Source of the DNA: Raillietiella orientalis
Taxonomy: Eukaryota
Direction: 5' to 3'
DNA: 36,803 nt
NCBI GenBank assembly: GCA_036172245.1
Contig: JAYWIR010000072.1
Location: 372,001 to 408,803 of the forward strand
Position numbers and translations under genes: made by a program. Position 1 is the first letter of the stretch. Each line of letters opens with the position of its first letter. Positions 1 to 36,803 of the stretch are shown here, piece by piece. Below the pieces are notes generated by a model. The model saw only the letters and a list, made by a program, of their open reading frames with translations. It was not told the DNA's origin and searched no databases.

Positions 1-1619
1 GAGGACCTTCTCGCCATTATGCCCGTAAAAGACATGGGCTATTTCAAGGTGCGTTGCAAAGACGCTGCACTTGTGCAACGTTTGCTGCGCACCCCGTTGT
101 CGATCCGTGGCCAGAAGGTCTTCCCGGCCGCCATGGACGACTCATTTGTGGTGGAGATTTTCGACATCGAGTCGGAAATCTCCGATACTGATATTCGGAA
201 CGCGTTGGCGAAATTCGCAACGGTCCATGCGCTGTGGAGGGTGCGTAGCAACCTCAAGGACTTCCCGTCCATACACAGCGGAGTCGCTGGAATCCAGCTT
301 TGTGCCCGGACCGCCGTCTGCCTGCAAACTACAGCTGAATGACACGGTCGTTCACACGCAGTTCATCAGGCAAAGTAAAAACGTGCGAGCAATGCGGGAA
401 GGGGGGGCATTGTTTGGATAAATGCCCCTCTGGAAAATGCCGAATTATTACAAACTATCCGAACTCCAGTGAAAATTGCCCGGATCTTTTGCGAAGAAAG
501 GCAGCCGCAGAGCTCGATCTTAAAAAACAAAACGCGGATAAAAAGAAAAAATCTGCGAGAAACCTGGAGATTCCACGGCAGAAATTCCGAAAAAACGCGA
601 GGCGGAATGTCGCCCCAAAGCAGCAGGAAACCTCGCAAGCGAAGCCCGGCGCGCCCCCTCTCGCGGCAGGGAAGCCGCAAAAGAAAGGGTGCGGGGAATC
701 CGGGGCAATGGTAAGTCCCCCTAGGCGCAATAGCTGTCCTTCATAAGCACACTCAGCTCTTTCGGAGTTTTAGTAACCGGCGGGGACGTCAATCGACAAC
801 GGAGGTAAGGACACTTCCAGTACCGTCAGATTCATTCCTCCACCTCCTGCAGTGGCTGAGAAGCACAAATCGGGTAAGAAGGGTTATGCCGTGTCGACTT
901 TGAAAGTCGGCAAAGAAAAATCCGCGTCGAGATCCAACACCGCGAAAGCGGAGAAAAATCTCATGCCTTCGCAGTCGGATAGCAAGCTCTCGACTGGCGC
1001 GGATGCCATGCCAACGAAGGGATTAGAAGCCCTTCCGAAGGCACGGTCCATGACGAGCGTGTCGGAGCTATCGAAACTGCTCCAGTTTAAAGACGCGGAT
1101 GGCTTCAAAGATGGCAATGGAGCACAATCTCCATTTACGGCCTGCAGTGAACAATGAAGTAGGAGCCAGCAAGGTCCCTCGTTCTGTAGCTGCAGAGCAC
1201 GCACGCTGAAAACAACCTTCGGGAAAGCAGCCGTCACCAAAAGCGATGCCCTGGTGACGGAAAACGAAAACAGGACAGCTGTCAATCCAGCAGAACCTGT
1301 CACTGCTTCGCGGAAGGCCGAAATCCGATCGAACAGGCGCCGGTCGGACTCCGAAATGGATGCCGTTCCGATCACCGAGACGAGGACAACTCGTTCGAAA
1401 GCGTGTGCGCGCCGATCAAAAGTAGGCAGCCAGGCAACGCTCGCCGCGAAGCAACGCGAAGTCTCCACGAAACCCGACGGGGTTCAGCCTGGCGTGGAGG
1501 CATTACATGCATGCAGCACGACAGAGGACGGTGGCGACCGTCCCCTCCAGCCAGTCGTGCTGCTCGCCGTCTGCTCGCCGGATAAAGCGAGAAAAAAGCC
1601 GCCACCTTCCCAGCAGTAA
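1..1619 (+). pseudogene. A1 ORF1 (nucleic-acid-binding, zinc knuckle), partial and disrupted
   Basis: Fragments 19..342, 339..746, 852..1157 and 1254..1619 are collinear with A2 ORF1; contains CEQCGKGGHCLDKC; several indels and stops. Confidence 0.9.
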
Positions 1620-4600
1620 TGCGGGGAATCGCGTCTTCTCGTCGTCTGTCCGTAACGTGTTGGAACGTGAACGGACTGCAGAACGACGAGAAGAGGCGAT
1701 TAGTAGCCAACGCTCTGCGCCCCTTCGACCTCGCGCTCCTGCAGGAGATTCACGTAATCTCCGACGAGCAGGCAGCCGAAATCGAGGAGCGCGCAGGCGG
1801 AACGCTACATTGGCGGTGCGGCGGCGTACACACGTGCGGCGTCGCGTTCCTCGTAAGAGGAAAAATGGCGGAAGCGGTGCGTAGTGTTCGTTTCGATGAC
1901 AACGGACGGATAGGCCAGCTTGTCATCAAGTGGTCCGAGTCCATCGATCTCGTCGTTACGAACGTCTACGCGCCGAGTGGCTCTCGCTACCTCGAAGAAA
2001 GAGTAGCTTTCTTTGGTGAGGTGCATAGCCACTGGCTCAACAACTCCGGTTTCCAAGTGGCGCACCTCGTGGCTGGGGACTTCAACGTCCGCCTGCTCTC
2101 CGACGATTGGAGCCGCTTGAGGGAGCGCGCGCTGCCCATCGAGATGTGCGCGTCCGTGCACGCCGCCAACTTGATGGTCAGCGAACCTGGAATGGAAAGA
2201 TCGCTCGATCACGTTTTTCTCGATGAAAACCTGCATTCGCGTGTGGGTAGGAGAGGAAGATTGTTGACTAGGCTTTCTGACCAGCACAGGTTGGAGTTTG
2301 AGATCCTTCCGCCAGGCAGGGGACCTCCGTTGCAAAGCTGGAGAATGCAGGCGGATTGGCTTAGCCAACCGGAGGCTGCGGAGCATCTACGTGGATACCT
2401 CCGGGGCTTTGCCATTCAAGAACTTGCGGACTGGGACGATCTCAAAAGATCTGTCCGCGAGTTCTGCTGCCAATTCCCCTTGCACCGGCTTCCACGCGGT
2501 TTCGGAGAGGGCGTGGCCAACAGTAGAGACTTTCTGCAGGCCCGCACGTTTTCGAGACGCGCGGATGTCGGGCGTCTCGCAGAGTACAAGGCGAGGGCCG
2601 AGCGCCAGGTCTGGCAGTCCGGAGCAGCATGCCTGCTGGACGACAAAGGCCAGGAATGTTCGGCCCCAGCCGAAGTACGCCGCATTGTGAGACGCTACTA
2701 CTCCTCGCTCTACGCGGATTCCCCGACGGAGGATATTCTTTCTGAGATACTCCTGTCTCAGGATGCTCGTGTTGTCGGCGAGGAGGAACGCGAACGTCTC
2801 GACGAGCCCTTCACGGCGGATGAATTTTCGTCCGCCATCGCTGGGCTGAAGAGACGAAAGGCGCCAGGCGAGGATGGGCTCCCTGCAGAGTTTTATCAGT
2901 GCTTTGCAGTGGAGCTCATTCCTTTGATGCTGAAACTCGCGACGCTGATGAGTGAATCCGGAAATGTCCCTGATTCCTTCCGCTCAGCGAAGGTGCGTCT
3001 CCTGCCGAAAGGCGGAGACTTGCGCCAACTTAACAACTGGCGTCCGATCACCTTGGTGAACTCGGACGTCAAGTTGTTTTCCAAGCTGTGGGTCGCGCGG
3101 TTAGGAAGAATCGCGGAATCTGTGGTGAGCCCGGAACAAACCTACGCGGTTCCGGGACGATCCATGGAGGCGAACATCCTTTTCGCGAGTACATGGATGC
3201 AGCTGCAGGAAGTTGTGGCGCAGCAAAGCCAGGCTGCTGCGAAAGTCACTGCCGCAGGCAAAAAGAACAGGCGCCGACGGCAGGAGGAAACGCCAGGTGC
3301 CTTGGCGGTCGCGGTCGATCTCCACAAGGCGTTCGACTGCGTAAACCAGAAGCTGCTTTTGGAGCATATGGAACGCCTTGGGTTCCCGGCGCAACTCCTG
3401 CTGTATTTGCGCGCGTGCTGGCGCCACGCGCTAACCTGCATCACTTTTAGCGGCTGCCGCGTGTATGGTATTACCGTTCGTAGGGGCATCCGACAGGGCG
3501 ACAGCTTAAGCCCGTTGCTCTTCAGCATCTTCTTTGAGTTGGTGCTAAGAGCATACAGGCTGACGCTGTCTCACTTGCCAAGCTCCTGCACGGGAACGCC
3601 TGCCGTGGCCGCCTACGCTGATGACCTGCTTCTTCTGCACCCCATGTGCACCGCGGCGTCCAGTGTCGAGGATTTCTTCGACCTGATTCGTCGGGGAGCG
3701 GGCGTGAGCGTGAACAGAGAGAAGAGCGCGATCGTTCCTGTGGGTACGTCGTGGGAGGGGCAGTCCGACTGGATCCGCCTGGGGATCCCTACGGGCGGGT
3801 ACTTCAAGTACCTTGGCGTTTCGTCGGGTGCTTTCGGCGCAGGCAAAGCGTGGGCGGACTGTCTTCGGGAAGCAGATTTGGCCATCAGACCGTTCTTTAA
3901 CGGCAAGTTCACCTTGCAGGAACGGGCGACTATTTAGAACACCTTTGTGGCCCCGCTCGTCCGTCCCCTGTTTTTTGTTTTGGAGTCCCCCTATACGGCG
4001 AAACAGCGGGCTAAACGCCTGCTCAGGAACGCTCTCTGGGGTCCGGCGAGATCCAGGATCCGCCTTAAAGATTTGTCAGCTCCGCGTCGGGATGCTGGTT
4101 TGGGTATCTTGACAATGGAGCGAATCGGACTGCAGGTGCAGTTCCGACTGCTGGCACTGTGTGCCCAGCTATGGACATCCCCCCTGTGTGTGCCAGCTCG
4201 CATTCTCCTGCGGAGATGCGCCGGCAGCGGAGGATTTCTCTCGCTTTTGCCGGGCACTCAATACAGGAAGCGGGGTTTCGTGTTTCCATTGCGGCAGTTG
4301 ACCGCACTTCTGGAAGCACACTCTTGGATCTCCTGTCGCCCAATGAACTTTGAAGCTTGGCGGCAGGAGTCTGTTGAATCCTGGGCGGCGTTCCAAGGAA
4401 TACGCTTTGAAGATCTTCGCCCCCTGCGCCAATTTTTTCCACGATCCTTGGAAGAAGTACTCCAGGACGAGGTGAAGTTTTCTACCCTGGCTGCCACGCC
4501 TCTTGCCGCAGCGCTGTCTGCCCTCAGGGCAAGAAACGAAAGTTACCAACCGGCGAGGTGGAAGGTTGCCTGCACTATAGCGGGAAAAACCAAAATCCTT

Positions 4601-5212
4601 GGCGCCTGGAAGACAAGTGAGTTGGCGCACGCCGCCACTTTTAGTGTTACAGCAAAGGGACTCCTCCGGTGGGAAGAAGAACTTGCTGTCACCCCCGAAG
4701 AACTTGTAGTCCCTCCACAGTGTATGGACAGTTCGCTGCTCCCCCTTGCTTGGAAACAAGCCGTGCTGCTTTTCGTTCACTGGGGTTTTCAGTGCAACGA
4801 GCGTTGGCATCGTGACTCCGGGGGACTTGCGTCTGCGAACTGCGTTCGGTGCGGATCGACGGAGTCGCTTCCGCACCTACTTCTGGACTGCGGTGTCCTA
4901 CAAGGACTGTGGCGTAGGCTGGCAACAGCACTATTGCATCCCGTGGACACCGCAAGAGACTTGCTGCGACGAGTCTTCACGCCGAGCGGGCTTTCAGTAA
5001 GCGCAAGGATTGCAACCATCGGTTGCATACGCGCGATAGTTTCCGTCCGCCAGGCGTTGGTAATCAACGGACAGCACCAAGAGGTAATCAGCAAAGCATC
5101 CTTCTACATAGGAGCATCCGCTAGATGGCCTCATTTGACAGAGGAGACAAAGAGGAATCTCGCCGCAATACACCGCCGGTTTACACACCCTCATCAGCGG
5201 CCAACCCGGTGA
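1619..5212 (+). pseudogene. A1 ORF2: APE endonuclease, reverse transcriptase and C-terminal CCHC finger (~1197 codons), one premature stop
   Basis: Motifs WNVNGL, LQE, NVYAP, GDFN, SDQH (SDHH in A2); KAPGEDG, NWRPITL, DLHKAFD, GIRQGDSLSP, YADD, YLG; CVRCGSTESLPHLLLDC. TAG at 3935-3937 where A2 has TGG. Confidence 0.95.
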
Positions 5213-5495
5213 TCATTGCCCTACCCTCCATAAACTAAATTTGTATTTTCTTTTTACACCCGCGTCCCCATAGGCTCCGGAACATTTGAGGTGCTCATCG
5301 TTTAAATCCCCGTGAGTACGGAGCCTCACCAAAAACCCTTTTCCCTTCCCTCCAGTTTTTGATTTTTGTTTGTTTCCCCTCATTCCCCCCACGCTGCGAG
5401 CGGTTTGTTTACCAGGCCTGCGTGGCGGTAATTTTCCTATGTTCTCTGTCGTTCTGTTGGTTGGGGACATTGTCCCTGACCAGTTTATTATTATT

Positions 5496-5525
5496 AATAA
5501 ACGCCCCGGCGTGACCGGGTGATAA
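5496..5525 (+). other. 3'-terminal motif of A1: AATAAA plus CCCGG/CCGGG stem-loop
   Basis: aataaacgccccggcgtgaccgggtgataa; recurs at the ends of A2, B1, B2, C and E. Confidence 0.85.
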
Positions 5526-5534
5526 ATTTCAATC
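5526..5534 (+). repeat. Direct repeat ATTTCAATC flanking A2 (TSD-like; partner at 11441-11449)
   Basis: Identical 9-mer on both sides of A2; the right copy continues into the E endonuclease frame (D)FNLCLL. Confidence 0.75.
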
Positions 5535-5535
5535 G

Positions 5536-5550
5536 AGTGCGGACGTGTTT
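5536..5550 (+). promoter_or_regulatory. Conserved 5'-terminal motif of A2 (candidate internal promoter)
   Basis: AGTGCGGACGTGTTT; similar 15-mers at the 5' ends of C, B1 and H. Confidence 0.55.
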
Positions 5551-5612
5551 TTCTTCGCTCTCGTCTCCGTGCTTTCATCCGCTTCATCTTGGCGTCGTAC
5601 ATTTTGACGACG

Positions 5613-7534
5613 ATGTCGACCCAACTTGAAGCTACTGAAGTTGGAGGAACAGCATCCGGATCTGCAATCGCGGAACCGACGGCCGCCTCCACTTCGTCTT
5701 TCTCGCCAATGGAGAGGAGTTTTGCTGACGTTGCTGCCACAGCAGCCGTCAAAGGGAAACCACTCGACGAGTCGGAGTTGCGGGCACACGTAGCCCAAGG
5801 CTATAGACCTGCTCTCCGATATAAGGTGAGTGGTTTTCTTTCTGCGCGCGACGGGAATCAGTTCAACGATGAACTGACGCGTGTTGGCGTGCGGGAGGAG
5901 GACCTTCTCGCCATTATGCCCGTAAAATACATGGGCTATTTCAAGGTGCGTTGCAAAGACGCTGCACTTGTGCAACGCTTGCTGCGCACCCCGTTGTCGA
6001 TCCGTGGCCAGAAGGTCTTCCCGGCCGCCATGGACGACTCATTTGTGGTGGAGATTTTCGACATCGAGTCGGAAATCTCCGATACTGATATTCGGAACGG
6101 GTTGGCGAAATTCGCCACGGTCCATGCGCTGTGGAGGGTGCGTAGCAACCTCAAGGACTTCCCGTCCATACACAGCGGAGTCGCTGGAGTCCGGCTTACA
6201 ATGCCGGACCGCCGTCTGCTGCCTACCAAACTACAGGTGAATGACACGGTCGTTCACCTGTGGTTCGTGGGCAAAGTAAAAACGTGCGAGCAATGCGGGA
6301 AGGAGGGGCATTGTTTGGATAAATGCCCCTCTGGAAAATGCCGTTATTGCAAACTATCCGGGCACCAATTGAAAAATTGCCCGGATCTTTTGCGAAAAAA
6401 GGCAACCGCGGAGCTCCATTTTAAAAAACAGAGCGCGGATAAAAAGAAAAAATCTGCGAAAAACCTGGAGACCCCACGGCAGAAATTCGGTAAAAACGCG
6501 AGGCGGAATGTCGCCCCAAAGCAGCAGGAAACCTCGCACGCGAAGCCCTGCGCGCCCCCTCTCGCGGCAGGGGAGCCGCAAAAGAAAGGGTGCGGGGAAT
6601 CCGGGGCAATGGTAAGTCCCCCTAGGCGCAATAGCTGTGCTTTCCAAGCACGCCCGGCTCTCTCGGAGTTCAAGCAACCGGCGAAGACGCCAATAAGCAA
6701 CGGCAATAAGGACACTTCCAGTACCGTCAGATCCATTCCTTCACCTCCGGCAGTGGCTGAGAAGCCCAAATAGGGTAAGAAGGGTTGTGCCGTGTCAACC
6801 TCGAAAGTCGGCAAAAAAAAATCCGCGTCGCGATCCAAGACCGCGAAAGCGGAGAAAAATCTCACGCCGTCGCAGTCGGAGAGCAAGCTCTTGACTGGAG
6901 CGGATGCCATGCCAAAGAAGGGTAATAAGGTTCTTCCGAAGGCAGCGACCATTACGAGCGTGTCGGAGCCATTGGAAGTGCTCCCGTTTGAAGACGCGTG
7001 TGGCTACAAAGATGACAATGGAGCACAATCTCCATTTACGGCGCCCCGCGAAGTGAGGAACCGTAATGAAGTAAAGAAGACTTCAGCAAAGGTCCCTCGT
7101 GCAACTGCGCGTGAGCACGCTGAGAACGCGCTTGCCGGGAAAGCAGCCGTCACCAAAAGCGATGCTCTGTAGACGGAAAGAGACAACAGGACAGCTGTCA
7201 ATCCAGCAGAACCTGTGACTACTTCGCGGAAGGCCGAAACGCGATCGAACTTGCGCCGGTCGTACTCCGAAATGGATGCCGTTCCGATCACCGAGACGAG
7301 GACAACTCGTTCAAAATCGTGTGCGCTTTGATCAAAAGTAGGCAGCCAGGCAACGCTCGCCGCGAAAAAACGCGAAGTCTGCACGGAACCCGACGGGGCT
7401 ATGCCTGGCGTGGAGGCATTACATGCATGCAGCACGACAGAGGACGGTGGCGACCGCCCCTCCAGCCAGTCGTGCTGCTCGCCGTCTGCTCGCTGGATAA
7501 AGCGAGCAAAAAGCTGCCACCTTCCCAGCAGTAA
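5613..7534 (+). pseudogene. A2 ORF1 with two CCHC zinc knuckles and a long basic low-complexity tail
   Basis: ATG at 5613; RSFADV; CEQCGKEGHCLDKC and CRYCKLSGHQLKNC; premature stops (e.g. 6771-6773, 7170-7172); ends SQQ-TAA overlapping the ORF2 ATG. Confidence 0.9.
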
Positions 7535-10500
7535 TGCGGGGAATTTCGTCTTCTCGTCGTCTGTCCGTAACGTGTTGGAACGTGAACGGGCTGCAGAACG
7601 ACGAGAAGAGGCGATTAGTAGCCAACGCCCTGCGCCCCTTCGACCTCGCGCTCCTGCAGGAGATTCACGAAATCTCCGACGAGCAGGCAGCCGAAATCGA
7701 GGAGCGCGCAGGCGTAACGCTACATTGGCGGTGCGGCGGCGCACACACGTGCGGCGTCGCGTTCCTCGAAAGAGGAAAAATGGCGGAAGCGGTGCGTAGT
7801 GTTCGTTTCGATGACGACGGACGGATAGGTTAGCTTGTCATCAAGTGGTCCGAGTCCATCGATCTCGTCGTTACGAACGTCTACGCGCCGAGTGGCTCTC
7901 GCTACCTCGAAGAAAGAGTAGCTTTCTTTGGTGAGGTGCAGAGCCAGTGGCTCAACAACTCCGGCTTCCAAGTGGCGCACCTCGTCGCTGGGGACTTCAA
8001 CGTCCGCCTGCTCTCCGACGATTGGAGCCGCCCGAGGGAGCGCGCGCTGCCCATCGAGATGTGCGCGTCCGTGCACGCCGCCAAGTTGATGGTCAGCGAA
8101 CCTGGAATGGAAAGATCGCTCGATCACGTTTTCCTCGATGAAAACCTGCATTCGCGTGTGGGCAGGAGAAGAAGATTGTTGACTAGGCTTTCTGACCACC
8201 ACAGGTTGGAGTTTGAGATCCTTCCGCCAGGCAGGGGGCCTCCGTTGCAAAACTGGAGGATGCAGGCGGATTGGCTTAGCCAACCGGAGGCTGCGGAGCA
8301 TCTACGTGGATACCTCCGAGGCTTTGCCATTCAAGAACTTGCGGACTGGGACGATCTCAAAAGATCTGTCCGCGAGTTCTGTTGCCAATTCCCCTTGCAC
8401 CGGCTTCCACGCGGTTTCGGAGAGGGCGTGGCCAACAGTAGAGACTTTATGCAGGCCCGCACGTTTTCGAGACGCGCGGATGTCGGGCGTCTCGCAGAGT
8501 ACAAGGCGAGGGCCGAGCGCCAGGTCTGGCAGTCCGGAGCAGCATGCCTGTTGGACGACAAGGGCCAGGAATGTTCGGCCCCAGCCGAAGTACGCCTAAT
8601 TGTGAGACGCTACTACTCCTTGCTGTCCGCGGATTCCCCGACGGAGGATATTCTCTCTGAGATACTCCTGTCTCATGATGCTCGTGTTGTCGGCGAGGAG
8701 GAGCGCGAACGTCTCAACGAGCCCTTCACGGCGGATGAATTTTCGTCCGCAATCGCTGGGCTGGAGAGACGAAAGTCGCCAGGCGAGGATGGGCTTCCTG
8801 CAGAGTTTTATCAGTGCTTTGCAGTGGAGCTCATTCCCTTGATGCTGAAACTCGCGACGCTGATGAGTGAATCCGGGAATGTCCCGGATTCCTTCCGCTC
8901 AGCGAAGGTGCGTCTCCTGCCGAAAGGCGGAGACTTGCGTCAACTTGACAACTGGCGTCCGATCACCTTGGTGAACTCGGACGTCAAGTTGTTTTCCAAG
9001 CTGTGGGTCGCGCGGTTAGGAAGTATCGCGGAATCTGTGGTGAGCCCGGAACAAACCTACGCGGTTCCGGGACGATCCATGGAGGCGAACATCCTTTTCG
9101 CGCGTACATGGATGCAGCTGCAGGAAGTTGTGGCGCAGCAAAGCCAGGCTGCTGAGAAAGTCACTGCCGCAGGCAAAAAGAACAGGCGCCGACGGCAGGA
9201 GGGAACGCCAGGTGCCTTGGCGGTCGCGGTCGATCTCCACAAGGCGTTCGACTGCGTAAACCAGAAGCTGCTTTTGGAGCTTATGGAACGCCTTGGGTTC
9301 CCGGCGCAACTCCTGCTGTATGTGCGCGCGTGCTGGCGCCACGCGCTAACCTGCATCACTTTTAGCGGCTGCCGCGTGTATGGTATTCCCGTTCGTAGGG
9401 GCATCCGACAGGGCGACAGCTTAAGCCCGTTGCTCTTCAGCATCTTCTTTGAGTTGGTGCTAAGAGCATACAGGCTGACGCTGTCTCACTTGCCAAGCTC
9501 CTGCCCGGGAACGCCTGCCGTGGCCGCCTACGCTGATGACCTGCTTCTTCTGCTCCCCATGTCCACCCCGGCGTCCAGTGTCTAGGATTTCTTCGACCTG
9601 ATTCGTCGGGGAGCGGGCGTGAGCGTGAACAGAGAGAAGAGCGTGGTCGTTCCTGTGGGTACGTCGTGGGAGGGGCAGTCCGACTGGATCCGCCTGGGGA
9701 TCCCCACGGGCGGGTACCTTAAGTACCTTGGCGTTCCGTTGGGCGCTTTCGGCGCAGCCGAAGCGTGGGCGGAGTATCTTCAGAAAGCAGAGTTGGCCAT
9801 CAGCCCGTTCTTTAACGGCAAGTTTACCTTGCAGGAACGGGCGACTATTTGGAACACCTTTGTGGCCCCCCTCCTCCGTCCCCTGTTTTTTGTTTTGGAC
9901 CCCCCCTATGCGGCAAAACAGCGGGCTAAGCGCCTGCTCAGGAACGCTCTCTGGGGTCCCGCGAGATCCAGGATCCGCCTTAAAGATTTGTCAGCTCCGC
10001 GTCGGGATGCTGGTTTGGGTATCCTGACAATGGAGCGAATCGAACTGCAGGTGCAGTTCCGACTGCTGGCACTGTGTGCCCAGCTATGGACATCCCCCCT
10101 GTGTGTGCCAGCTCGCATTCTCCTGCGGAGATGCGCCGGCAGCGGAGGATTTCTCTCTCTTTTGCCGGGCACTCAATACAGGAAGCGGGGTTTCGGGTTT
10201 CCATTGCGGCAGTTGACCGCACTTCTGGAAGCACACTCTTGGATCTCCTGCCGCCCAATGAACTTTGAAGCTTGGCGGCAGGAGTCTGTTGAATCCTGGG
10301 CGGCGTTCCAAGGAATACGCCCTGAAGATCTTCGCCCCCGGCGCCAATTTTTTCCACGATCCTTGGAAGAAGTACTGCAGGACGAGGTGAAGTTTTCTAC
10401 CCTGGCTGCCACGCCTCTTGCCGCAGCGCTGTCTGCCCTCAGGGCAAGAAACGACAGTTACCAACCGGCGAGGTGGGAGGTTTCCTGCACGATAGCGGGA

Positions 10501-11410: not shown

Positions 11411-11440
11411 AATAAACGCCCCGGCGTGACCGGGTGATAA
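11411..11440 (+). other. 3'-terminal AATAAA plus stem-loop motif of A2
   Basis: Identical to 5496-5525. Confidence 0.85.
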
Positions 11441-25746: not shown

Positions 25747-25776
25747 AATAAACGCCCCGGCGTCAACGGGTGAGAA
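25747..25776 (+). other. 3'-terminal AATAAA plus stem-loop motif of C
   Basis: aataaacgccccggcgtcaacgggtgagaa. Confidence 0.82.
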
Positions 25777-25940
25777 ATCTCTTGCGCTTGTTCTGCAGAG
25801 ATCACGTGGATCTCCTGCAGCAGCGCAAGGTCGTAGGACTCCAGAAGGGCGGCCATGTCTCGTCTCCTGCCGGCGTCTGTCATGCCGTTCACGTTCCAAA
25901 CGGCGATGCGCAGACGACGGCGGGAGGAGATTCCCGGCAT
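25777..25940 (-). pseudogene. B1 ORF2 N-terminus (start of endonuclease), cut by the C insertion
   Basis: MPGISSRRRLRIAVWNVNGM...LLQEIHVISAEQAQEI; matches B2 from 30201 onward. Confidence 0.93.
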
Positions 25941-25954
25941 TACTGCTGGGAAGA

Positions 25955-27616
25955 TTAAGGTGTGGGGGAGCCCGCCTCTTGCCAGACGGGCGGGATGTCC
26001 ATGGGGGTTTCGGGCTTCTCAGGCACCTGAGGCACCTGTTCGGCCTCCACCCCCTCCATCCCTTCCGTGTCCGCGCGTGCGATTCTCTCGGGCGACGGGA
26101 CCCGAGAGTTTCCCACGCTCATGGCACCCTCGCTTGCGGAAGCCATCTCTTCCACTTCGACGGGGGAGACGAGCTTCCTTGGCTTTGTGGACTTACGTCC
26201 AGCCTTCTTGCGCGGTGCCGTGCAAACGGAGGCTGCGCTTCCGGCCTCCACCTCGGGGTCGGAAGTTGGGGACTCCTGAGGAGAGGCCGGACGCCTTACG
26301 GCCTTCCTGCCAGCCTTGGAGGGTTCTGGCTGCAACGAGGCTGCCAGCTCCTCCGCGGCTCGCGCGAAGGCTACGTCATCGATGGTGGTGTCGATGACGG
26401 ACGCCGCCGCCGGCTCGCTCCCCTCGCTGTTGACTGTGTCAACAGAGGGGAGGTCGTCGGTAGCCGCGAGTTCTTTCCGGCAGCGTTCGTTAACATCGAG
26501 AAGGCGTTCGACAACGACTCTGCACTCTTCAATTATCGCGCTACCCTGCTCTTTCTTCTTCTGCTGGTAGGCGATTTTCTTTTCCATCCTCCTCTCCTTC
26601 TTTGATTTTTTGGCGGTTGCCACTTGCCACTCAGTCTCCTGGCCGGCTCCCTCAACTTTTTCTGCGTTGGTCGCCGGGGTCTCCGGTGTGGCCTGGACCT
26701 TGGCCGCGGATGGCACAGCCTTCGCGGCAGCTTTCGCCGCCAGTCTTTTCTGCAGAAGCCGGGCGCGTTTTTTAAGGTTTCTCTTGGAAACCAACCGCAC
26801 TGCTGCTTTTGGGCACATTTCCCTCGTGTGGCCCATTGTGCCGCATACTTGGCACTGCACATTGGGACACCTCTTTCTGAGGTGGCCCCACGTATTGCAG
26901 AAGCCACAGTATTTCGGCTTTCCCACATACCAGAGGTCGACGGTTTCGCCTTCGACCACCAGTTTGTGGGGAACAGTGCAACCCTCCTGAACAGTCATGC
27001 GCGCAGCAGTGAGGCCGTGTTGCAGCCCCGTGAAGTCCTCGAAAGGACTAACTTTCGTCCACTGCGCGTGGACCGTTCCAAACTGTTCCAAAGCGGCGCG
27101 AACCTGTTCTTTGCGCATTCGCGCGGTCACGTTTAACAGGTGGACCACCATGCTGCGGTCCGCGGTAGTGGGGAGAAGCTTGAGCGTACCCATCACAACG
27201 GGGGTTTTAAGCAGTCGTTGAGCCAGCTCTGCATGTTTGCAGATGACTTCAACGTACTGACCCGCGCTGCGGATGGTCATAGCGCTGAGCTCCTCCTCTT
27301 TCACATCGAGAACGCGCATGCCCTTCGAGAAGGCGCGCGCTCTCTCTAAAGAATGTAAATTGCCTACCTTGTAGAACAATGAAGGGTTGTACCCCTCCTC
27401 TACATAGGCCGACAATTCCGCCGCGGCTGCAGGCGATGGCGCCGACACAACGGCGCTTCACGCCCGCGCTGCAGCAGGGACCGATCCTGTGGGGGCGCAT
27501 GCCCCCACCTCCATCTCCTCCGGGGGCGACGTTGCTGCCGCCCCCTGGCTCTCCATCGCCTCTGGGGGCGGCGTTGCCGCTGCCCCCTGGCCATTCCTGG
27601 TGCTCGCGTCAGGCAT
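25955..27616 (-). pseudogene. B1 ORF1 with two CCHC knuckles; one internal stop
   Basis: ATG at 27616 (MPDAST..) in frame with 25955..27448; TGA at 27460-27458 where H has Trp; CGFCNTWGHLRKRC and CQVCGTMGHTREMC. Confidence 0.88.
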
Positions 27617-27689
27617 TGCTGCCTGATCGACCACCGAACCACACGACGCTTCCACTGGGAGAGACTTCCTGGCACGAGGAGCACCGAGA

Positions 27690-27704
27690 AAACACGTCCA
27701 CCCT
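27690..27704 (-). promoter_or_regulatory. Conserved 5'-terminal motif of B1
   Basis: Minus strand AGGGTGGACGTGTTT(T), a few nt inside the TSD; boundaries approximate. Confidence 0.5.
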
Positions 27705-27710
27705 AGAGCG

Positions 27711-29818
27711 CACAAGGCGTTCGACTGTGTAGCCCAGAAACTTCTCTTGGAGCTCCTGGGTCGCATGAGCTTTCCACCCTCCCTGATCAACTACCTGCGC
27801 TCCTGCTGGCGCCATGCCATAATTTCCGTCTTTTTCAGCAGTCAGAAGGTGCATGGCGTACCGGTGCGGCGGGGCATCAGGCAGGGAGATAGCCTGAGTC
27901 CCCTGCTCTTCAGCACCTACTTTGAGTTGGTGCTAAGAGCCTACAGGGTGACTTTGGCCTCCTTGCCGAGCTCGTGTCCCGGCACGCTTGCCGTAGGAGC
28001 CTATGCCGACGACCTTCTGCTCCTGTTACCTATGTCTACCCCGGCGAAGGCGGTCGGAGACTTCTTCGAACTGCTCAGCCGTGGGACCGGACTGCAGGTC
28101 AACAGGGCGAAGTCGTCGGTGGTGCCAGTAGGTGCGGCGTGGGCAGGGCAGCAGGACTGGGTCCGTCTGGGGATCCCCACGGCGAGGTGCCTTAAGTACC
28201 TTGGTGTGCCGTTGGGTGACTACTCCCCTGCGGAAGCGTGGTCCAGCTGTCTTCAAAAAGTTGAGACGGCGATCGGCCCGTTCCTGGAAGGCAGGTTTCA
28301 CTTGCCAGAACAAGCCGCGGTTTGGAACGCCTTTGCGGCCCCCATCCTCCGCCCCTTGCTTTTTGTTTGCCCCGCTTCAAGAGTAGTTAAAAAGAGGACG
28401 ACGGACCTCCTTTGTATCGCCCTTTGGGGCAAGGGGAGGCCCCGAGTCCCTCTGCAGGACTTGTGCGCTCCGCGTCGGGACGGCGGCCTTGGCCTCCTGA
28501 CGCTGGAGCGGGTAAAAATCCAGCTGCGGTGGCGAACCCTCGCCATCGCAGCAAAGATGTGGAGCACCCCTTGGTGCGTTCCGGCCCGCCACCTCGCCAA
28601 GCGTGTGTCCCGATGCGAAGGACTCGCGTCGTTTCTTCTGTGCCCTGGCCGGAAGATCCGAAGATGCGGCCTTTTGCTCGGACGCAGAGCAACCTTGGCG
28701 AAGACGAACGGTTGGATGGTTTGTGGCCCCGTTAACTCCTCCGCCTGGTTTAGGATTCTGCTGGCACATGGGCTAAGCTGAACCGGAGAAGTGAAAACCA
28801 CATGAACTGCCTGCGAATCGGCCCATACGCCAACCGCTCCCTGCGGGAAATACTGGAATTTCCCCGTAGTCGCAGGTGGGCGCTGACGACTTCCCTTGCT
28901 ACGGCGATGCCCTACCTCCTGAGGGCGCTTCAGGATCGCCAGAAGCCAAGATGGCAAGTCACCTGCCAGATCGCAGGCAGAGAGAAGATGTTAAGCGGCT
29001 GGACCACAGGAGAACTGGCGGACGCCACGACCCCGAGCGTCCAGCCGCGTGGATTAATGAGATGGGGCGAGCTGCTCGCCATCTTTACGGATGTGCTGAA
29101 GTGGCCCCCGGTACTAATGGAATCCAGGATCCTGCCCCTTAAGTGGCAAGAGTCGGCGTTGCTACTGCTGCACTGGGGTTTACCCTGCAACGCACGGCGC
29201 TTCCACTGGACAAGGGGAACTGTGGATCCTGAGTGTGTCAGGTGCAGAAAGCGGGAATCGCTCTCCCACATTATTGTGGACTGCGCTGCCATCCGACCCC
29301 TCTGATAACGGTTCGGGACGACCCTCGGGCTCCCTACGGGCAGCACCCCCAGAGACGTTCTTCGGCCCCTCTTCGTGAGGGACGCACGGCACCCAGCTGC
29401 AGCCATCGCAGCCTTGTGCTGTGTCCGTGGCATCGTGGCGGCATGGAGCGACGCCAAAAACGAAGGAGTGGGTCCACACGCGAATGATGTCATCCCATAC
29501 GTCCAACGCTTCATGCGGAGAGCTGCCGGATGGCCCCAACTGGGGAATATACGGACCGACGTCGAGGGCTTCCTTCAACGGATGGGCCCTCCTCACAGCG
29601 CTCAGTGATCCCTTCCCTGCCCTCCAACTTCTTTTTGTCTGTTTATTTTTTATTTCTCTTTTTGTTTTATCCCCATCCCCCTTCGCTGCTGAGGAACGCT
29701 ACGCTGGGCTGCGTCCCGGCGTCCCGGCAGGTCCAGTGCATATGGCCGTGAGCGGGGCCTTGTACCGCGGATGTAGTGTTTTTTAAAAATAAACGCCCCG
29801 GGCATACCCGGGTGTAAA
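27711..29818 (+). mobile_element. Element E, 3' half (RT from HKAFD, CCHC finger, 3' UTR, terminal stem-loop)
   Basis: HKAFDCV, GIRQGDSLSP, YADD, YLG, CVRCRKRESLSHIIVDC; stop at 29606-29608; ends aataaacgccccgggcatacccgggtgtaaa (29788-29818). Confidence 0.92.
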
Positions 29819-30186
29819 CCTCCAAGGCTGGCAAGAAGGCCGTAAGGCGTCCGGCCTCCTTTCAGGAGTCCCCCACTTCCGAACCCGAGGTGGAGGCCGG
29901 AAGCGCAGCCTCCGTTTCCACGGTACCGCGCAAGAAGGCTGGACGTCAGTCCACAAAGCCAAGGAAGCTCGTCTCCCCCGTCGAAGGGGAAGACATGGCT
30001 TCCGCAAGCGAGGGTGCCATGAGCGTGGGAAACTCTCGGGACCCGTCGCTCGAGGGACTTCCACGCGCGGACACGGAAGGGATGCAGGGGGTGGATCCCC
30101 AACAGGTGCCTCAGGTGCCTGAGAAGGCCGAAACCCCCATGGACATCCCGCCCGCCTCCCAAGAGGAGGGCTCCCCCACACCTTAA
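29819..30186 (+). pseudogene. B2 ORF1 C-terminal fragment
   Basis: Near-identical to the end of B1 ORF1 (..ETPMDIPP..GSPTP*). Confidence 0.9.
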
Positions 30187-30200
30187 TCTTCCCAGCAGTA

Positions 30201-33200
30201 ATGCCGGGAATCTCCTCCCGCCGTCGTCTGCGCATCGCCGCTTGGAACGTGAACGGCATGACAGACGCCGGCAGGAGACAAGACATGGCCGCCCTTCTGG
30301 AGTCCTACGACCTTGCGCTGCTGCAGGAGATCCACGTGATCTCTGCAGAAGAAGCGCAAGAGATCGAACGGATCTCCGGAGGGCGGCTATGGTACAGGTG
30401 TGGGAGAGCGAAAAGTTGCGGTGTCGCCTACCTGCTTCGGCCAGCCGTCGAGGCCGCGGCTCGGGGCGTGCGGTTCGACGATCACGGTCGTGTCGGCCAG
30501 CTGACTCTCAGGTGGTCCGACTCGATCGACCTGATCGTCAGGAACATGTACGCACCGAGCGGCAAGGACCTGATAAACAGGAGGGCGAGGAAAGAGATTT
30601 TCCTTGCCCTCCGGCAAGACTGGCTGACCAAAGCAGGCGTGCGGAATGCGCATCTTGTTGCAGGCGATTTCAACGTTCGCCTGAAACCAGATGAGCAGAA
30701 TCCCGAGCGTGACCTAGTCAACAAGCTGTGCATGACGGTGCACACCTGTAATCTGTTGGCCAGTGCACCGAAGATGGAAGACAGCATTGACCACGTGTTT
30801 CTTGACGAGCACCTGTGCCCTCGCGTGGGCAGGCGCGGCAAGTTACCGTGCGAGCTTTCCGACCATCGCCCGCTAGTCCTCGAGATCCATCCGCGCGACA
30901 GGGGCCCCCCCTCGTCAGCGTGGCGTCTCCCAGGGGACTGGCTGAAGCTCCCGGACGCGGCGGAACATCTCCGCACGTTCATACAGAGCATCAGTCTGCG
31001 GACACTCCAGGATTGGGACCGCTTCAAGCGGTCGGTCCAGGAGTTCTGCGACCAGTTCCCTCTGCACCGCCTACCCACGGGTTTTGGGACCGGGGTCCGT
31101 AACGAAGGAGCCTACCTGCAGGCCCGTCGTTACGCCAGGACCCCCGACATCCGCAGGCTGGCGGAATACAAAGCGGGAGCCGAGAGGCAAGCCTGGGATT
31201 CCGAATTGGCCAGCTTACTGGACGATCAGGGCCAGGAGCACTCGGCACCTGCCCAAATCCGCGGCCTGCTGCGGAGTTACTACTCCTCCCTGTATGCCAG
31301 GGCACCTCCGGAGAGGAACGTCTCACGACTCCTGCTTCCGGAAGGCGCTCCGGCGATCGGGGAGGAGCAGAGAAAGACCCTCGACGAGCCTTTCACGATG
31401 GACGAGATCCTCTCGGCCATCGGAAAGCTCAAGAGGCGAAAGGCTCCAGGGGAGGACGGGCTGCCCGCGGAGTTTTATCAAACTTTCGCGGCTGAGCTTA
31501 CTCCCCTGGTACAGCAACTCACCTTGCTGATACGCGAAACAGGTGACGTTCCCGCCTCGTTTCGTTCGGCAAAGGTGCGGCTTCTCCCTAAGGGAGGAGA
31601 TCTGAGGAGCATGAACAACTGGCGTCCCATCACAATAGTGAATGCGGACGCCAAGTTGCTAGCAAAGGTTTGGGCAGAGCGTCTGGGACGGGTTGCCAAC
31701 ATATTTATCAGCCCGGAACAGACATATGCTGTTCCCGGGCGAAGCATGGAGGCGAACCTTTTCCTCACTTCCACCTGGCTAGAGCTGCAACATGAAAAGA
31801 GCTTGGTGCGCAGCCGGAATTCCGGTGCGTGCGCCGGCAAGGGGTTGGATGGTCGGGTGGGGGAGGAAGCCCTTGCGGTCGCAATCGACTTGCGAAAAGC
31901 ATTCGATTGCGTCGACCAGAATCTCCTTCTGGAGCTTCTAGAACGCTTGGGCTTCCCGGCCTCATTAGTGGCCTATCTGCGCTCCTGCTGGCGCGACGCG
32001 CTCATCAATGTTACTTTCAGCGAGCAGACCGTGCACGGCGTGCCGGTGCGGCGTGGGATCCGGCAGGGAGACAGCCTGAGCCCCTTGCTCTTCAGTACCT
32101 ACTTTGAGTTGGTATTGAGAGCGTACAGGGGAACTCTGGCGCACCTGCCGCACCACTGTGCCGGTACGGCGGCCGTTTCAGCATACGCGGACGACCTTCT
32201 GCTGCTGCTCCCTATGTCCACCCCGGCTACGGCGGTCGAGGAGTTCTTCGACCTGCTGCATCGGGGAACCGGTCTTACGGTGAACAGGGCGAAGTCGTCC
32301 GTGATGCCAGTTGGTGCGGCGTGGGCAGGGCAGCAGGACTGGGTCCGTTTGGGGATCCCCACGGTGGAGTACTTCAAGTATCTTGGTGTGCCGTTGGGGG
32401 ACTACTCCCCTGCGGAAGCGTGGTCCGGCTGCCTTCAAAAAATAGAGACGGCGATCGGCCCGTTCCGAGGCGGCAGGTTTTTCCTGCCTGAACGGGCCGC
32501 GGTTTGGAACACGTTCGCGGCTCCTCTCCTCCGCCCCCTGCTTTTTGTTTGCCCCCCCACAGAGAAGATTAAAAAGCGGACAAACGACCTCCTCCGTATC
32601 GCCCTTTAGGGCAACGGGGGGGCCCGAGTCCGCTTAAAGGACTTGTGCGCACCTCGTCGGGATGGTGGTCTGGGCCTCCTGACGCTGGAGCGGATGGAGC
32701 TTCAGCTCCAGTTCCGCTTGTCGGCACTCGTTCCAGAGTTGTGGTGCACCTGTTGGTGCGTCCCTGCACGTCTCCTTCTCCATCAAGCCACCGGCAAGAC
32801 GGGACTGACGTCGTTTCTTGCACTCCGTCGCCGCGTCAACCGATGCGGACTCCAGCTACGGAGGGTGGCTGCGCTGGATTGCTCACCTGTCGCCCGTTTA
32901 ACGGTAGTGCCTGGTTGCAGGAAACCGTTCGAACGTGGGGACAGTTCGGCATGCTACGCTCCCAACAGGAACGAAGGTTCCTGTTTGGGGGTTACAGAAG
33001 TTGCACGCTCCGCGAGATCCTGGAGGATCCAAAGAAGAGAGCGTGGGCAGGAAGAACCGCCCTCGCTGCTGCGCTGCCCTCCCTGATGGAAGATCTGGAC
33101 AGCGATGTTGCGGCGAAGTGGGTGGTTACAGTAACAATCTCCGGAAAGGAGAAGAAGATAGGAGAGTGGAAGACGGGCCAGTTAACAGACGCTGCGACCC

Positions 33201-33764
33201 CGAGTACGCCTCCCAATGGACTTCTGCGCTGTGGCGCGTTGCTCGATGTTCCCATTGAACATCTGAAGTGGACCCCGGTGCTCATGAACACTTCCGCCCT
33301 CCCCTTAAAATGGCAGGAGTCGGCTCTCCTGTTGCAGCACTGGGGACTCCCCTGCAACGCCCGCCGACACCACTGGACCTGGGGAGCGGTGGACCCAATT
33401 GCGTCAGGTGTGGGGAACGGGAGTCCCTCCCCCAACTGCTAGTGGATTGTGTTGCCCTTCGGCCCCTTTGTTTTCGCTTTGCCGCGGCCATCGGAATCCC
33501 CTGCACCAATTCCAGGGACGCACTTAAAGCCCTCTTGGTTGCCGACGCCCTTCGGCCAGCTGCCTCGTTAGCAGCTTTGTGCTGCTTACGCGGGATCGTC
33601 ACCGCTTGGAGCAAGGCTACTGGAGGACAACGCGACCAGGGTGCCATCCAGCCAGCCTCCCAGTTCCTGAGGAGGGCGTCTCGATGGCCCCACCTGGATC
33701 CAGGAATACAGAAGGAGCTTGCCGGCATCCTGCAAAGGATGCAACGGCCCCATAGCAAATGTGA
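30201..33764 (+). pseudogene. B2 ORF2 (EN-RT-CCHC); open for 802 aa, then a stop and frameshifts
   Basis: All EN and RT motifs intact in 30201..32609; TAG at 32607-32609; short deletion near 32877 relative to B1; CVRCGERESLPQLLVDC. Confidence 0.95.
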
Positions 33765-33982
33765 TCCCTTCCCTTACCCTCCCTAATTTTCTTTTCTTTT
33801 TTGTTTTGTTTTTTGCTTCTCCCCCTCCCCCCTGCTGTTGTGGTGGACCGTACCGGTCCGCGAACCGTTTACCCGGCAGGCTCTGTGTTTCTTCGTGCGT
33901 AGCTGTTGCAATGGTCCAGCCACCGCACGTCTTTGTAAAAGTTTCTTTTACAATATACGCCCCGGCGAAATCCGGGTAAAAA

Positions 33983-34822
33983 TCGAATGCTTTGTGTAAA
34001 TCGACCGCGACGGCAAAGGCTCCCGCCATGTCCATCCTACCCTCTGCCCGATCTTCTTGGTCAGAGGGGGGCGCGAAGCTCCCTTGACCGTCCTGTGCAA
34101 CGCGTTGTCGCAACTGCCACCATGAGCTGGCGAGGAGCAGGTTGGCCTCTATGGTTCGTCCGGGAACAGCGTAGGTCTGCTCGGGACTCACCACGCAAGC
34201 GGCCACCCGCCCCAACCGCTCAGTTCACAACTTGGCATACAACTTTGCGTCAGCATTCACTACTGTGATGGGACGCCAGCTGCCAATGTTGCGTAAGTCT
34301 CCTGACTTCGGTAGGAGACGTACTTTAGCTGACCGGAACGAGGCGGGAACTTCGCCGTGTTCGCGGATCAGCGCACTTAACCTGAGCACCAGGGGGGCCA
34401 GCTCTGGCGCGAAGCGATGGTAAAACTCCGCGGGCAGGCCGTCCTCCCCTGGTGCCTTCCTTCTCTTGAGCCTGTTGATGGCGGAGATGTTCTCCGCCAT
34501 CGTGAACGGTTCCGCCAATCTGGAACGGTCCTCCTCCTTGAGCGCGGGAGCACCATCCGGCAGCAGGCGCTGCGCGAAATGGCGCTCAGGTGTTAGTGGC
34601 GCGTTCAAGGAGGAATAAAACTCCCACACGATGCGGCTTACCTGGGCTGGGCTGGAGCGTTCTTGGCCCTGATGATCCAGCAGGCAGGCCGAGCCTGACT
34701 GCCAGGCCTGCCTCTCCGCGTCAGCCTTGAATTCTGCCAGGCGACGGACGTCGGGACGCCTGGAATAGCGGCGGGCCTGAAAGTATGCCCGCTCATTCCT
34801 GACACCCTCGCCGAATCCCCGC
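33983..34822 (-). pseudogene. Element G, ORF2 internal fragment (EN-RT linker to RT DLHKAFD), cut by H and B2
   Basis: RGFGEGV, KAPGEDGLPAEFY, SWRPITVVNAD, PEQTYAVPGR, AVAVDLHKAFD; distinct in sequence from A, B, C and E. Confidence 0.92.
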
Positions 34823-34920
34823 TGTGGAGAGCGGACGTGCTTTTCCTGCGCTCCGCCTGCGTGGCAAAGCGAGTGTTTTTTCTTCTTGAGTGATTTGTGC
34901 GTGCACATCGTCGGTGTCCG

Positions 34921-36755
34921 ATGGCAGCGTTGCCAGAGGACACCGCGATGGAAGTAGGCGTGATGGAGGATTGTTCGTCCCCACAGCCTACTGGATCAGG
35001 GGCATCCGCCCCGGAATCGTCCCCGGCGACGCCGAGGTCCTGGAGCGCCATGGTGGCCGCGCCTAGCGTGGAAGCCATGGCCGAGATGGAAGCCTACAAG
35101 AAAGCGGGGTATAAACCCTCGCTAGTCTACAAGGTAGGCAACCTTTTCGATGGGCGAACTGCACGCGCCTTTACGAAGGCGCTGCAGAACGCCAATATTT
35201 TTGAAAAAGATCTCGACGGCCTCTGCGTCCTCAGCGGCGGGCAGCGGGTCGAGGTGGTAAGCAAGGATATCACCTTGGCCCGACACCTGATCACCGACCC
35301 GCTGATCGTTGATGGTCGGAAGATCTTGCCGATAACGATGGACCGCTCGGTGGTGGTCCATCTCACTGGGATCTCAAGTCGCATGACGAGGTCAGCGGTT
35401 CGAGAACAGCTTCAAAAGCACGGAGAAGTGCACGCGTTGTTGCCGAAGTCCACGATTTTCCAAGGCTACAATAGCCTTTTCGGAGGTCAAGCTGCGGCGC
35501 GTATCACGGTAAAAGAGGGTGGTGCGCTTCCCTATAAGCTGGAGGTCTGCCAAGAAGCGGTGGACCTCTGGTACGTGGGAAAACGCCAATTTTGTGGCTA
35601 CTGCAATGCAGTAGGGCATCTACGAAAAAAGTGCCCGAACATTGTGTGCCACCTATGCGGCGAAAAGGGTCACGTTCGGCGCGTGTGCCCCAAGCGCCCC
35701 ACTTCGGTGCCCCCTGCCGCCAAAAAGGCGCAGGGAAAACGTGGAAAGCTGGTAGAAAGACCAGCTCGCGAAAATGGCCGTTCCCAACTTCCAGCCTCCC
35801 TTCCTCCCGTACAGACGTCGGAGGAAATAGCTCCCGTGAACGCGGGAATGGAGGGTTGGCAGCTGGTTCAGGCCAGAAAAGAGAAAAAAAAGAAAGTGAT
35901 GATAGAAGAAAATTCGGTAAAGAAAACTGCCGGCAACAAGAAAAAAGCCGCGCCGCTTTCAAAAAAAAACTCCGCGAATGCTCGGTGGCACTGGAACGCT
36001 TAGCCGTTCCTGCCAAGTCCGCCCGCGGCAATGTTCGCGGAACAGCTGATGCGGACGCGATGAATACTCGCGTGGACGAGCCCAATCTACGTGTAGAGGG
36101 TGAGACGCGAGACTCGCGCGCCGACAGCCAGGACGCCGCGCTCGATAAAGTCGCGGAGGAGCCCGCGGCAAAGTTCGCCGTCAACGATGACGCCGCGCTC
36201 GATACGGTCGCGGAGCAGCCCGCGGCAACGGTCGCCGCTGGCGAGGACGCGGCCTTCGAGAAAGCGGCTGAGGAGCTCGCAGCAACGCTCGCCGAGCGCG
36301 AAACCCCGTCGCGCAAGGGCGTACGCAGGTCGGCTCCGACGAAGAAGGCCCCCGCAGGTGAGTGCGACCTGGGGGCCGGAAGCGGATCCTCCTCCTCGGA
36401 GGCACCCCCCAGGAAGTCGGGACGCAAGTCCCAGAAACCCAGGAGGCGCCTCCCCTCCACCAGCGAGGAGGAGAAACCGGAAGGAAGCGGCAGCGTGAGA
36501 ATCCCGGAGGGGGAATACCCACGCCCGGAAGCCGTCGAGTCGGCCACCCCCATGGAGGAGGGAGAGCAGGGGGGTTAAGTCCTCCCTGCAGTCGCGAAAC
36601 CTGAGCAGCCCGAACCCATGGAGGAAGGCGAACAGGTAGGCGCGACTCCACGTGCGGGTGATCCGGCCGACGCGCCGGCACCGATGGAGGAGGAGGAAAA
36701 GGTGCCTTCAGTACCTGTCCCCCCTCCCCCTCCACCTAGCGTCCCGCCCCAGTAG
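34921..36755 (+). pseudogene. H ORF1 with two CCHC knuckles; frameshift in an A-rich tract and a probable premature stop
   Basis: YKVGNL, DRSVVVHL and VDLWYVGK shared with B1 ORF1; CGYCNAVGHLRKKC, CHLCGEKGHVRRVC; homology continues in the 35592..36578 frame (RECSVALERL); 3' end uncertain. Confidence 0.8.
36132..36302 (+). repeat. 57-bp tandem repeat x3 in H ORF1 (19-aa unit)
   Basis: Units start at 36132, 36189 and 36246: DAALDKVAEEPAAKFAVND / DAALDTVAEQPAATVAAGE / DAAFEKAAEELAATLAERE. Confidence 0.85.
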
Positions 36756-36803
36756 GTGGCGGACGCCGCATCGCCGTTTTCCCTGGACTAACACCTGGGC
36801 TCG

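What the first reader, a model, noticed from the sequence alone, without database searches (positions are those of the whole stretch)
1..36803. Six-level nesting of L1/Tx1-like elements with no host DNA: possible Zepp-like centromeric or heterochromatic island
Seen: essentially every base belongs to one of nine copies. The order G > B2 > E > B1 > C > D is supported by three paired TSDs and by reading frames that rejoin; the outer two levels have only one junction in the window. A1/A2 lie in E and H lies in G. No other transposon class is present. Known: Zepp elements in Chlorella/Coccomyxa and Zepp-like L1 elements in Chlamydomonas form nested clusters at putative centromeres. Inference: this clade homes to its own clusters, and the locus may be centromeric, subtelomeric or a small-RNA source.
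Basis: partly seen in the sequence, partly recalled or inferred. Interest (0 to 1): 0.75.

Follow-up and report, generated by a model that had tools for sequence, protein, structure and literature searches.

The report
LINEs targeting fixed sites in LINEs
This stretch of an arthropod genome is a pile of related jumping genes (LINEs) nested inside one another because each family lands at its own exact spot inside sister families, and nothing found here shows that it is a centromere.

Summary
The window is wholly LINE DNA, and the nest is real. K>B1>C>D and A1/A2-in-K are confirmed by target-site duplications and collinear halves. The six-level order as written fails. 'E' is a chimera of families K and E, switching at 27744-27788, and the upstream flank has no B2 5' half. 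Two nests are joined here. The cause is sequence-specific targeting. Among 30 genome-wide copies read per family, most sit at one nucleotide of a sibling LINE or in tandem at the regenerated target: A 30/30, C 28/30, B 25/30, E 26/30, D 28/30 (two sites). K and H share one site. The Zepp/centromere reading is not supported. The host looks arthropod, most copies keep their 5' ends, and several contigs carry two or more islands, including telomere-capped C13. Copies are clustered and concentrated in small contigs and contig ends, so heterochromatin is plausible. Earlier scan notes found this mutual targeting on other DNA of this genome. Added here: the chimera, and K and E having different targets despite 94% identical endonucleases. 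It works like TE-targeting Tx1 elements; my searches found no paper on LINEs targeting LINE coding sites.

The parts
1..5526 (+). A1, family A LINE; its 5' end lies 362 bp upstream of the window
   Evidence: Pfam Exo_endo_phos + RVT_1; 94.75% identical to A2
5527..5534 (+). single target copy (8-9 bp, GDFN codons of host K) between tandem A1 and A2
5535..11441 (+). A2, full-length family A LINE: 5' motif GGACGTG, ORF1, ORF2, AATAAA + hairpin 3' end
   Evidence: 63 of 66 diagnostic sites are K-type
12678..12691 (+). left TSD of B1 (H-K-A-F-D codons of RT motif A)
12692..16326 (-). B1 3' half, antisense in K
16327..16341 (+). left TSD of C (15 bp, in the B EN region just after LQEIH)
16342..17684 (+). 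C 5' part (5' end, ORF1 with zinc knuckle), antisense to B1
17685..17701 (+). left TSD of D, between the ORF1 zinc knuckles and ORF2 of C
17702..21175 (-). D, divergent sister lineage (36% RT identity to B), 5'-truncated by about 2.2 kb against an upstream D copy
21176..25776 (+). C 3' part, starting with the right TSD of D
25777..27710 (-). B1 5' half with intact 5' end, including the right TSD of C (25777-25791)
27711..27744 (+). right TSD of B1 (27711-27724) and the last K-type bases
27744..27788 (+). K-to-E switch interval (crossover, homology-joined 5' end of an E insertion, or mis-join)
27788..29818 (+). 3' part of family E, ending at E's usual target in B ORF1
29819..33982 (+). B2 3' part (end of ORF1, ORF2, 3' end); its 5' half is not upstream
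33983..34818 (-). G fragment between RT motif A (B2's target) and the GFG codons (H's target)
34819..36803 (+). H 5' part (5' end, ORF1 with zinc knuckles), antisense in G; cut by the contig end

Best explanation
A radiation of two-ORF, APE-endonuclease LINEs (L1/Tx1 group) in an arthropod, in which every family is sequence-specific and its target is a fixed site inside sibling LINEs. A goes sense into the EN GDFN codons of K/E. B goes antisense into RT motif A of K/E, G, A and others. C goes antisense into the B-type EN. D goes antisense just upstream of ORF2 in C, with a second site in other families. E goes sense into B ORF1. K and H go antisense into GFG codons of G and others. G goes into ORF1 sites. 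SHOWN: recurrence of the junctions, family-typical TSD lengths (about 9, 10, 14, 15, 16 bp), tandem copies separated by one target copy. INFERRED: target-primed reverse transcription at an element-made nick. Every full-length insertion brings new targets for other families and the TSD regenerates its own target, so nests deepen with no need for centromeric chromatin. The K/E switch is a later recombination or an insertion-linked deletion joining two nests (left J>G'>K>B1>C>D with A1/A2 in K; right G>B2>E and G>H). The islands are probably heterochromatic as a consequence.
For: 3' flanks of the 30 best-matching copies per family (window copies included). A: 18 at the site + 12 tandem. B: 23 + 2 tandem, 5 other. 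C: 26 + 2, 2 other. E: 22 + 4, 3 other, 1 uninformative. D: 13 + 10 tandem + 5 at a second site, 2 unknown. 5' flanks, K: 22 at the site, 7 after a 3' end plus the same target, 1 other. H: 18, 10 after a 3' end plus target, 2 at contig starts. G, 17 of 40 listed read: 6 at one site + 3 tandem, 5 at a second site, 3 other. Independence: B's motif-A hosts fall in 8 flank clusters at 85% identity. Truncated and full-length copies share a site. 5 of 30 H copies follow a K-type 3' end with one target copy between them, which duplication of one element cannot make. Uninterrupted K and E copies with empty sites exist. A, B and C each differ from their target at their own homologous site.
Against: The loci are the best 30 of 211-1439 candidates per search, so they lean to young copies and count loci, not events. 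The K/E switch shows that these islands rearrange, so some identical junctions may be duplicates. 5 of 30 B copies lie elsewhere, sharing only about 4 bases with the target. K and E have different targets but ENs that differ at only 15 of 235 residues, 1 of 77 in the C-half, which a pure endonuclease-specificity model does not explain. No cleavage or transposition assay was run. All ORF2 copies in the window carry stops.
Confidence: 0.85

Rival explanations
1. Zepp-like centromeric island: the clade homes to centromeric chromatin and forms one cluster per chromosome.
For: Copies are clustered: 12 of 14 spaced samples had none. 274 of 320 best hits lie on contigs C26 and smaller. 27 of 90 hits on 13 contigs over 2 Mb lie within 100 kb of an end, against 5.1 expected. 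The window ends its contig. In the algae, Zepp clusters are GC-rich and ZeppL contigs also break there.
Against: Two or more multi-family islands lie on C5, C13, C26, C33 and C54. C13 ends in TTAGG repeats and has islands at 2.45-2.58 Mb and 4.30-4.37 Mb. The shared 3' motif occurs at six or more separate places on 12.19-Mb C1. The host looks arthropod. Sequence targeting alone explains the nesting.
Confidence: 0.12
2. The repeated junctions come mainly from segmental duplication, unequal crossing-over or retrotransposition of composite units after a few founding insertions.
For: The K/E switch shows rearrangement. 12 of 30 A copies are tandem. Two pairs of loci have near-identical junction text (L009/L028, L222/L226).
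Against: The same nucleotide is hit in hosts that do not cluster at 85% identity (8 clusters for B; three host groups each for K and H). Heterologous K-then-H tandems exist. 5' ends differ at one site. A1 and A2 differ by 5%.
Confidence: 0.08
3. The K/E switch, and so the joining of the two nests, is an assembly mis-join rather than a biological rearrangement (this rival concerns the local order only).
For: The window lies at a contig end in dense repeats. The one run laid gave no contig cover at 27602-28228.
Against: The switch interval is only about 44 bp, between families about 9% apart on either side. That is little for a long-read overlap, though the read type of this assembly is not known to me.
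Confidence: 0.15

Closest known systems
TE-targeting Tx1-clade LINEs: Xenopus Tx1L (into Tx1D), crocodilian Tx1-Mar (Mariner-N4_AMi), Tx1-8_Crp and Tx1-4_AMi (LTR elements), Tx1-9_AMi (Harbinger); PMC4494074, PMC1950540 (passages read)
   Same: APE endonuclease + RT, animal host, fixed target inside another transposon, fixed orientation per site, tandem copies sandwiching a TSD (described there for SINEU-3).
   Different: The targets here are other LINEs of the same radiation, often conserved ORF2 codons, and at least eight families form a network. RTs are only about 30% identical to fish Tx1-like proteins and form their own clade.
Zepp (Coccomyxa C-169) and ZeppL-1 (Chlamydomonas); PMC3446292, PMC8226300, 10.1101/2025.03.28.645958 (passages read)
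   Same: L1-type LINEs in GC-rich nested clusters where assemblies break.
   Different: Zepp is described as strictly one cluster per chromosome, made mostly of 5'-truncated 3' ends. Here there are many families, mostly intact 5' ends, nucleotide-exact cross-family targets, several islands per contig and an animal host.
R1/R2 rDNA-specific non-LTR elements; PMC5035012 (Introduction and passages read)
   Same: Exact insertion into a conserved multicopy sequence.
   Different: Their target is a host gene; here it is the sibling elements' own conserved sequence.

Membership tests
Zepp/ZeppL centromeric L1 LINEs | L1-type LINE with APE endonuclease and RT | tested here: met
   Pfam Exo_endo_phos + RVT_1; best solved relative is human L1 ORF2p, E 1.5e-47
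Zepp/ZeppL centromeric L1 LINEs | Nested clusters | tested here: met
Zepp/ZeppL centromeric L1 LINEs | Strictly one cluster per chromosome, absent elsewhere | tested here: not met
   two or more multi-family islands on C5, C13, C26, C33, C54; six or more places on C1; contig-level assembly, best hits only
Zepp/ZeppL centromeric L1 LINEs | Arrays mostly of 5'-truncated 3' ends | tested here: not met
   A1, A2, K, B1, C and H keep their 5' ends; D is truncated; the 5' ends of E, B2 and G are not at this locus
Zepp/ZeppL centromeric L1 LINEs | RT groups with Zepp | not testable with these tools
   no Zepp sequence came from any call; the host looks arthropod
Zepp/ZeppL centromeric L1 LINEs | CENH3 occupancy | not testable with these tools
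   no chromatin data
Target-specific Tx1-clade LINEs | Two ORFs; zinc-knuckle ORF1; APE EN + RT + C-terminal cysteine motif | tested here: met
   zf-CCHC in C and H ORF1; cysteine/histidine motif near the end of E ORF2
Target-specific Tx1-clade LINEs | More than 20% of flanks are one target type (criterion of PMC4494074) | tested here: met
   35% (G, 6 of 17) to 87% (C, 26 of 30) at one site before counting tandems, for all eight families read
Target-specific Tx1-clade LINEs | RT falls inside the Tx1 clade | tested here: inconclusive
   own clade with SH-aLRT 98; the join to fish Tx1-like rows is only 61; quick tree, no named Tx1L, Keno, human L1 or Zepp rows
Target-specific Tx1-clade LINEs | Endonuclease nicks the target sequence in vitro | not testable with these tools
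   shown for Tx1L-EN in PMC1950540; here K and E ENs are 94% identical yet their targets differ

The most novel reading that the evidence does not exclude
A closed community of at least eight sequence-specific LINE families whose main niche is each other's sequence: mutual hyperparasites that break rivals at catalytic-motif codons while avoiding their own versions. Target choice has diversified quickly and is set, at least for K versus E, outside the endonuclease, for example by the hypervariable block of about 100 residues after the RT (62% identical K versus E, against 88-99% in the rest of ORF2).
Probability: 0.3. Interest if true: 0.88.

Novelty: new variant of a known kind. Interest (0 to 1): 0.7.

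Why it matters
It offers a natural panel of closely related LINE proteins (63-93% identical RTs among A, B, C, E, G, K) with distinct short DNA targets. That makes the question of how APE-type LINEs gain and switch target specificity directly testable by domain swaps, and K versus E is close to an isogenic pair. It shows a route to deep nests that needs no centromere. It also warns that in such islands outer nesting levels cannot be read from single junctions, because recombination between sister families joins unrelated nests.

Tried and rejected
(1) Six-level single nest: rejected by the upstream flank and diagnostic sites. (2) B1 itself as the recombinant junction: rejected, since the 5 diagnostic sites right of its TSD are still K. 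(3) CpG-decay signal of methylation: none; 18 of 74 and 20 of 100 transitions lie at CpG against 17-18% of sites. This says nothing on chromatin. (4) The idea that the variable post-RT block tracks the target: inconclusive. One further family with the K-type site is K-like there (L237, L238: 91-93% to K, 63% to E). Another is nearer E (L205, L211: 76-77% to E, 63% to K). L222, L226 and L206 were uninformative. (5) Run search: one DNA holder, no RNA holder listed. Laying its contigs gave short pieces and no bridge over the switch. (6) Metagenome scan: 7 loci of 145 candidates, all distant, no relatives of this group. One metagenome protein, P0001 (76% to B), shows a relative exists, without context. 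(7) The careful tree did not finish; the quick tree is reported. (8) The K/H target row of the homologous-site table failed to align, so self-avoidance was read for A, B and C only. (9) A primary Zepp paper (PMC169880) is not held. (10) Tandem Repeats Finder found only three short arrays, so there is no satellite in the window.
Full report
ANATOMY. The window is the last 36,803 bases of contig C72 (408,803 bp) of a 210-Mb, 491-contig genome. ORF2 pieces carry Exo_endo_phos and RVT_1; the ORF1s of C and H carry zinc knuckles. All families except D share a 5' motif (GGACGTG plus T-run; one base differs in C). All end in an AATAAA-like signal, a small hairpin and only 2-4 A, with no poly(A) tail. 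Three TSD pairs are present, each with one or two differences. A match of 13 of 14 bases occurred in 3 of 200,000 random pairs. The halves split by A, B1 and C are collinear on uninterrupted copies and overlap only by the TSD.

THE NEST IS TWO NESTS. I read 80 kb upstream. A1's 5' end is at -362, in GDFN codons, as predicted, and the host's 5' half runs to about -2680. It is flanked not by a B2 5' half but by a G copy 95% identical to the window's G over the same segment, so a different copy. That G sits in ORF1 of an A-like family J. Against three uninterrupted K and three uninterrupted E copies, the upstream half is K at 311 of 334 diagnostic sites and the middle piece at 63 of 66. The piece right of B1 is K for its first 5 sites and then E (175 of 190 overall), with the switch between 27744 and 27788. 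Each end of the chimera sits in the target typical of its own family. So K>B1>C>D and A-in-K are genuine, and the left side continues outward as J>G'>K. G>B2>E and G>H belong to another nest. The join may be non-allelic recombination, an E insertion whose cDNA annealed to K and deleted the interval (a mechanism I recall from human L1 work, not read here), or a mis-join. The one run laid does not bridge it.

WHY IT NESTS. For each family I read the flanks of the 30 best-matching copies in the genome, out of 40 listed and 211-1439 candidates; window copies are included. A: 18 of 30 at the EN GDFN codons of K/E and 12 tandem. B: 23 antisense at RT motif A of sibling families, 2 tandem, 5 elsewhere. 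C: 26 antisense in B-type EN, 2 tandem, 2 elsewhere. E: 22 in B ORF1, 4 tandem, 3 elsewhere, 1 uninformative. D: 13 in C, 10 tandem, 5 at a second site just after ORF1 of other families, 2 unknown (the D 5' end was confirmed by alignment for one tandem and by shared text for the rest). K 5' ends: 22 antisense at GFG codons, 7 after a 3' end plus the same target, 1 other. H 5' ends: 18, 10, and 2 at contig starts. G: 17 of 40 listed were read; 6 at one ORF1 site, 3 tandem, 5 at a second site, 3 other. All pass the 20% criterion for target specificity used in PMC4494074 (passages).

INDEPENDENT EVENTS OR DUPLICATES. Against mere duplication: B's 23 motif-A hosts fall in 8 clusters at 85% identity. 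A 5'-truncated B upstream and full-length B1 share the site, as do truncated and full-length D. Five H copies follow a K-type 3' end with one target copy between them. A, B and C differ from their targets at their own homologous sites, a weak sign of self-avoidance. These are counts of loci, biased to young copies, and some may be duplicates.

WHAT SETS THE TARGET. In Tx1L the endonuclease alone nicks the target (PMC1950540, passages). Here K and E have unlike targets, yet their ENs differ at 15 of 235 residues, only 1 of 77 in the C-half. A block of about 100 residues after the RT is only 62% identical, against 88-99% elsewhere in ORF2; the 5' kilobase (ORF1) is 66-80% identical at DNA level. 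By position the block falls where human L1 has its wrist domain (863-1061; PMC10830420, passages); this is by numbering only, not aligned. Whether the block tracks the target was inconclusive: one family for, one against. ORF1, the EN N-half (14 differences) and the RNA 3' end remain candidates.

CENTROMERE OR NOT. The families are clustered. 12 of 14 spaced 5-kb samples had no cover; the other two had 4% and 17%. Of 320 best hits, 46 lie on C1-C25 and 274 on smaller contigs. On the 13 contigs over 2 Mb whose length I had, 27 of 90 hits lie within 100 kb of an end, against 5.1 expected. But the pattern is not Zepp's strictly one cluster per chromosome (PMC3446292, PMC8226300, passages). The shared 3' motif has 329 exact matches (reversed control 0); the first 100 listed include six or more separate places on C1. 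C5, C13, C26, C33 and C54 each carry two or more multi-family islands. C13 ends in a TTAGG array (motif recalled; the 100 listed of 149 matches are all there) and has one island 115-190 kb from it and another 1.9 Mb away. A host exon from C1 has CUB domains, and all its named best hits are arthropods (one gene only). Pericentromeric or subtelomeric heterochromatin remains plausible for some islands. CENH3 binding, shown for ZeppL (10.1101/2025.03.28.645958, passages), cannot be tested here.

RELATIONSHIPS. The best protein hits are one metagenome protein at 76% and fish Tx1-like proteins at about 30%. In a quick tree of 51 RT rows (10 from this genome, 41 chosen from the 120 listed hits), A, B, C, E, G, J, K and P0001 form a clade (99), with D as sister (98). 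The join to fish Tx1-like rows is weak (61), and no Zepp, Tx1L or human L1 row was available. It works like a target-specific Tx1 element; membership of the Tx1 clade is not settled, and two defining Zepp features fail.

NOVELTY. Transposon-targeting LINEs are known. Seven searches of the held library (listings and abstract starts seen) returned no paper on LINEs targeting fixed sites in other LINEs. The library lacks most subscription papers and Repbase, and I read no supplements, which may list such targets. A recent centromere atlas had no 'Tx1' in its main text (10.64898/2026.09.17.752431, passages). Earlier notes of this scan describe the same mutual targeting on other DNA of this genome. 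I had stated that reading before looking, and tested it on my own loci. Verdict: observation partly confirmed, centromere reading unsupported, new variant of a known kind, interest 0.70.

Noticed in passing
L035 (C72 about 325,230-333,900; 38-47 kb upstream of the window): Two copies, about 66% identical, of a distantly related RT element interrupt the EN region of a D copy. Pfam RVT_1 only; no APE domain seen by tblastn. R2/NeSL-like by recalled motifs, untested. No other copy among held loci.
   Followed up: partly
L038-L037 (C72 about 301,200-307,600): A lower-GC stretch (zone GC 0.43) with no match to these LINEs inside the island.
   Followed up: no
P0001 (metagenome protein, 2,870-bp contig): 76% identical to B ORF2 and sister to B in the tree, so the group probably occurs in another organism or sample.
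   Followed up: partly
window 5496-5526, 11411-11441, 25747-25776, 29788-29818, 33952-33982, 17702-17738: All families end in an AATAAA-like signal followed by a GC hairpin and only 2-4 A; D has a different hairpin. Possibly the RNA signal for the element's own RT.
   Followed up: partly
L254-L258: A G subfamily with a slightly different 3' end uses a different ORF1 target from the other G copies: a possible recent target switch.
   Followed up: no
G000:C20 about 2,925,928-2,926,107: Three short tandem matches to the last 56 bases of the G 3' end at 62-bp spacing.
   Followed up: no
window 27509-27591 and 36119-36294: Short in-frame tandem repeats (42 and 57 bp) within the ORF1s of B1 and H.
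   Followed up: no
G000:C13 4,486,415 to the end: TTAGG telomeric array; the listed matches of this pattern were all on this contig.
   Followed up: partly
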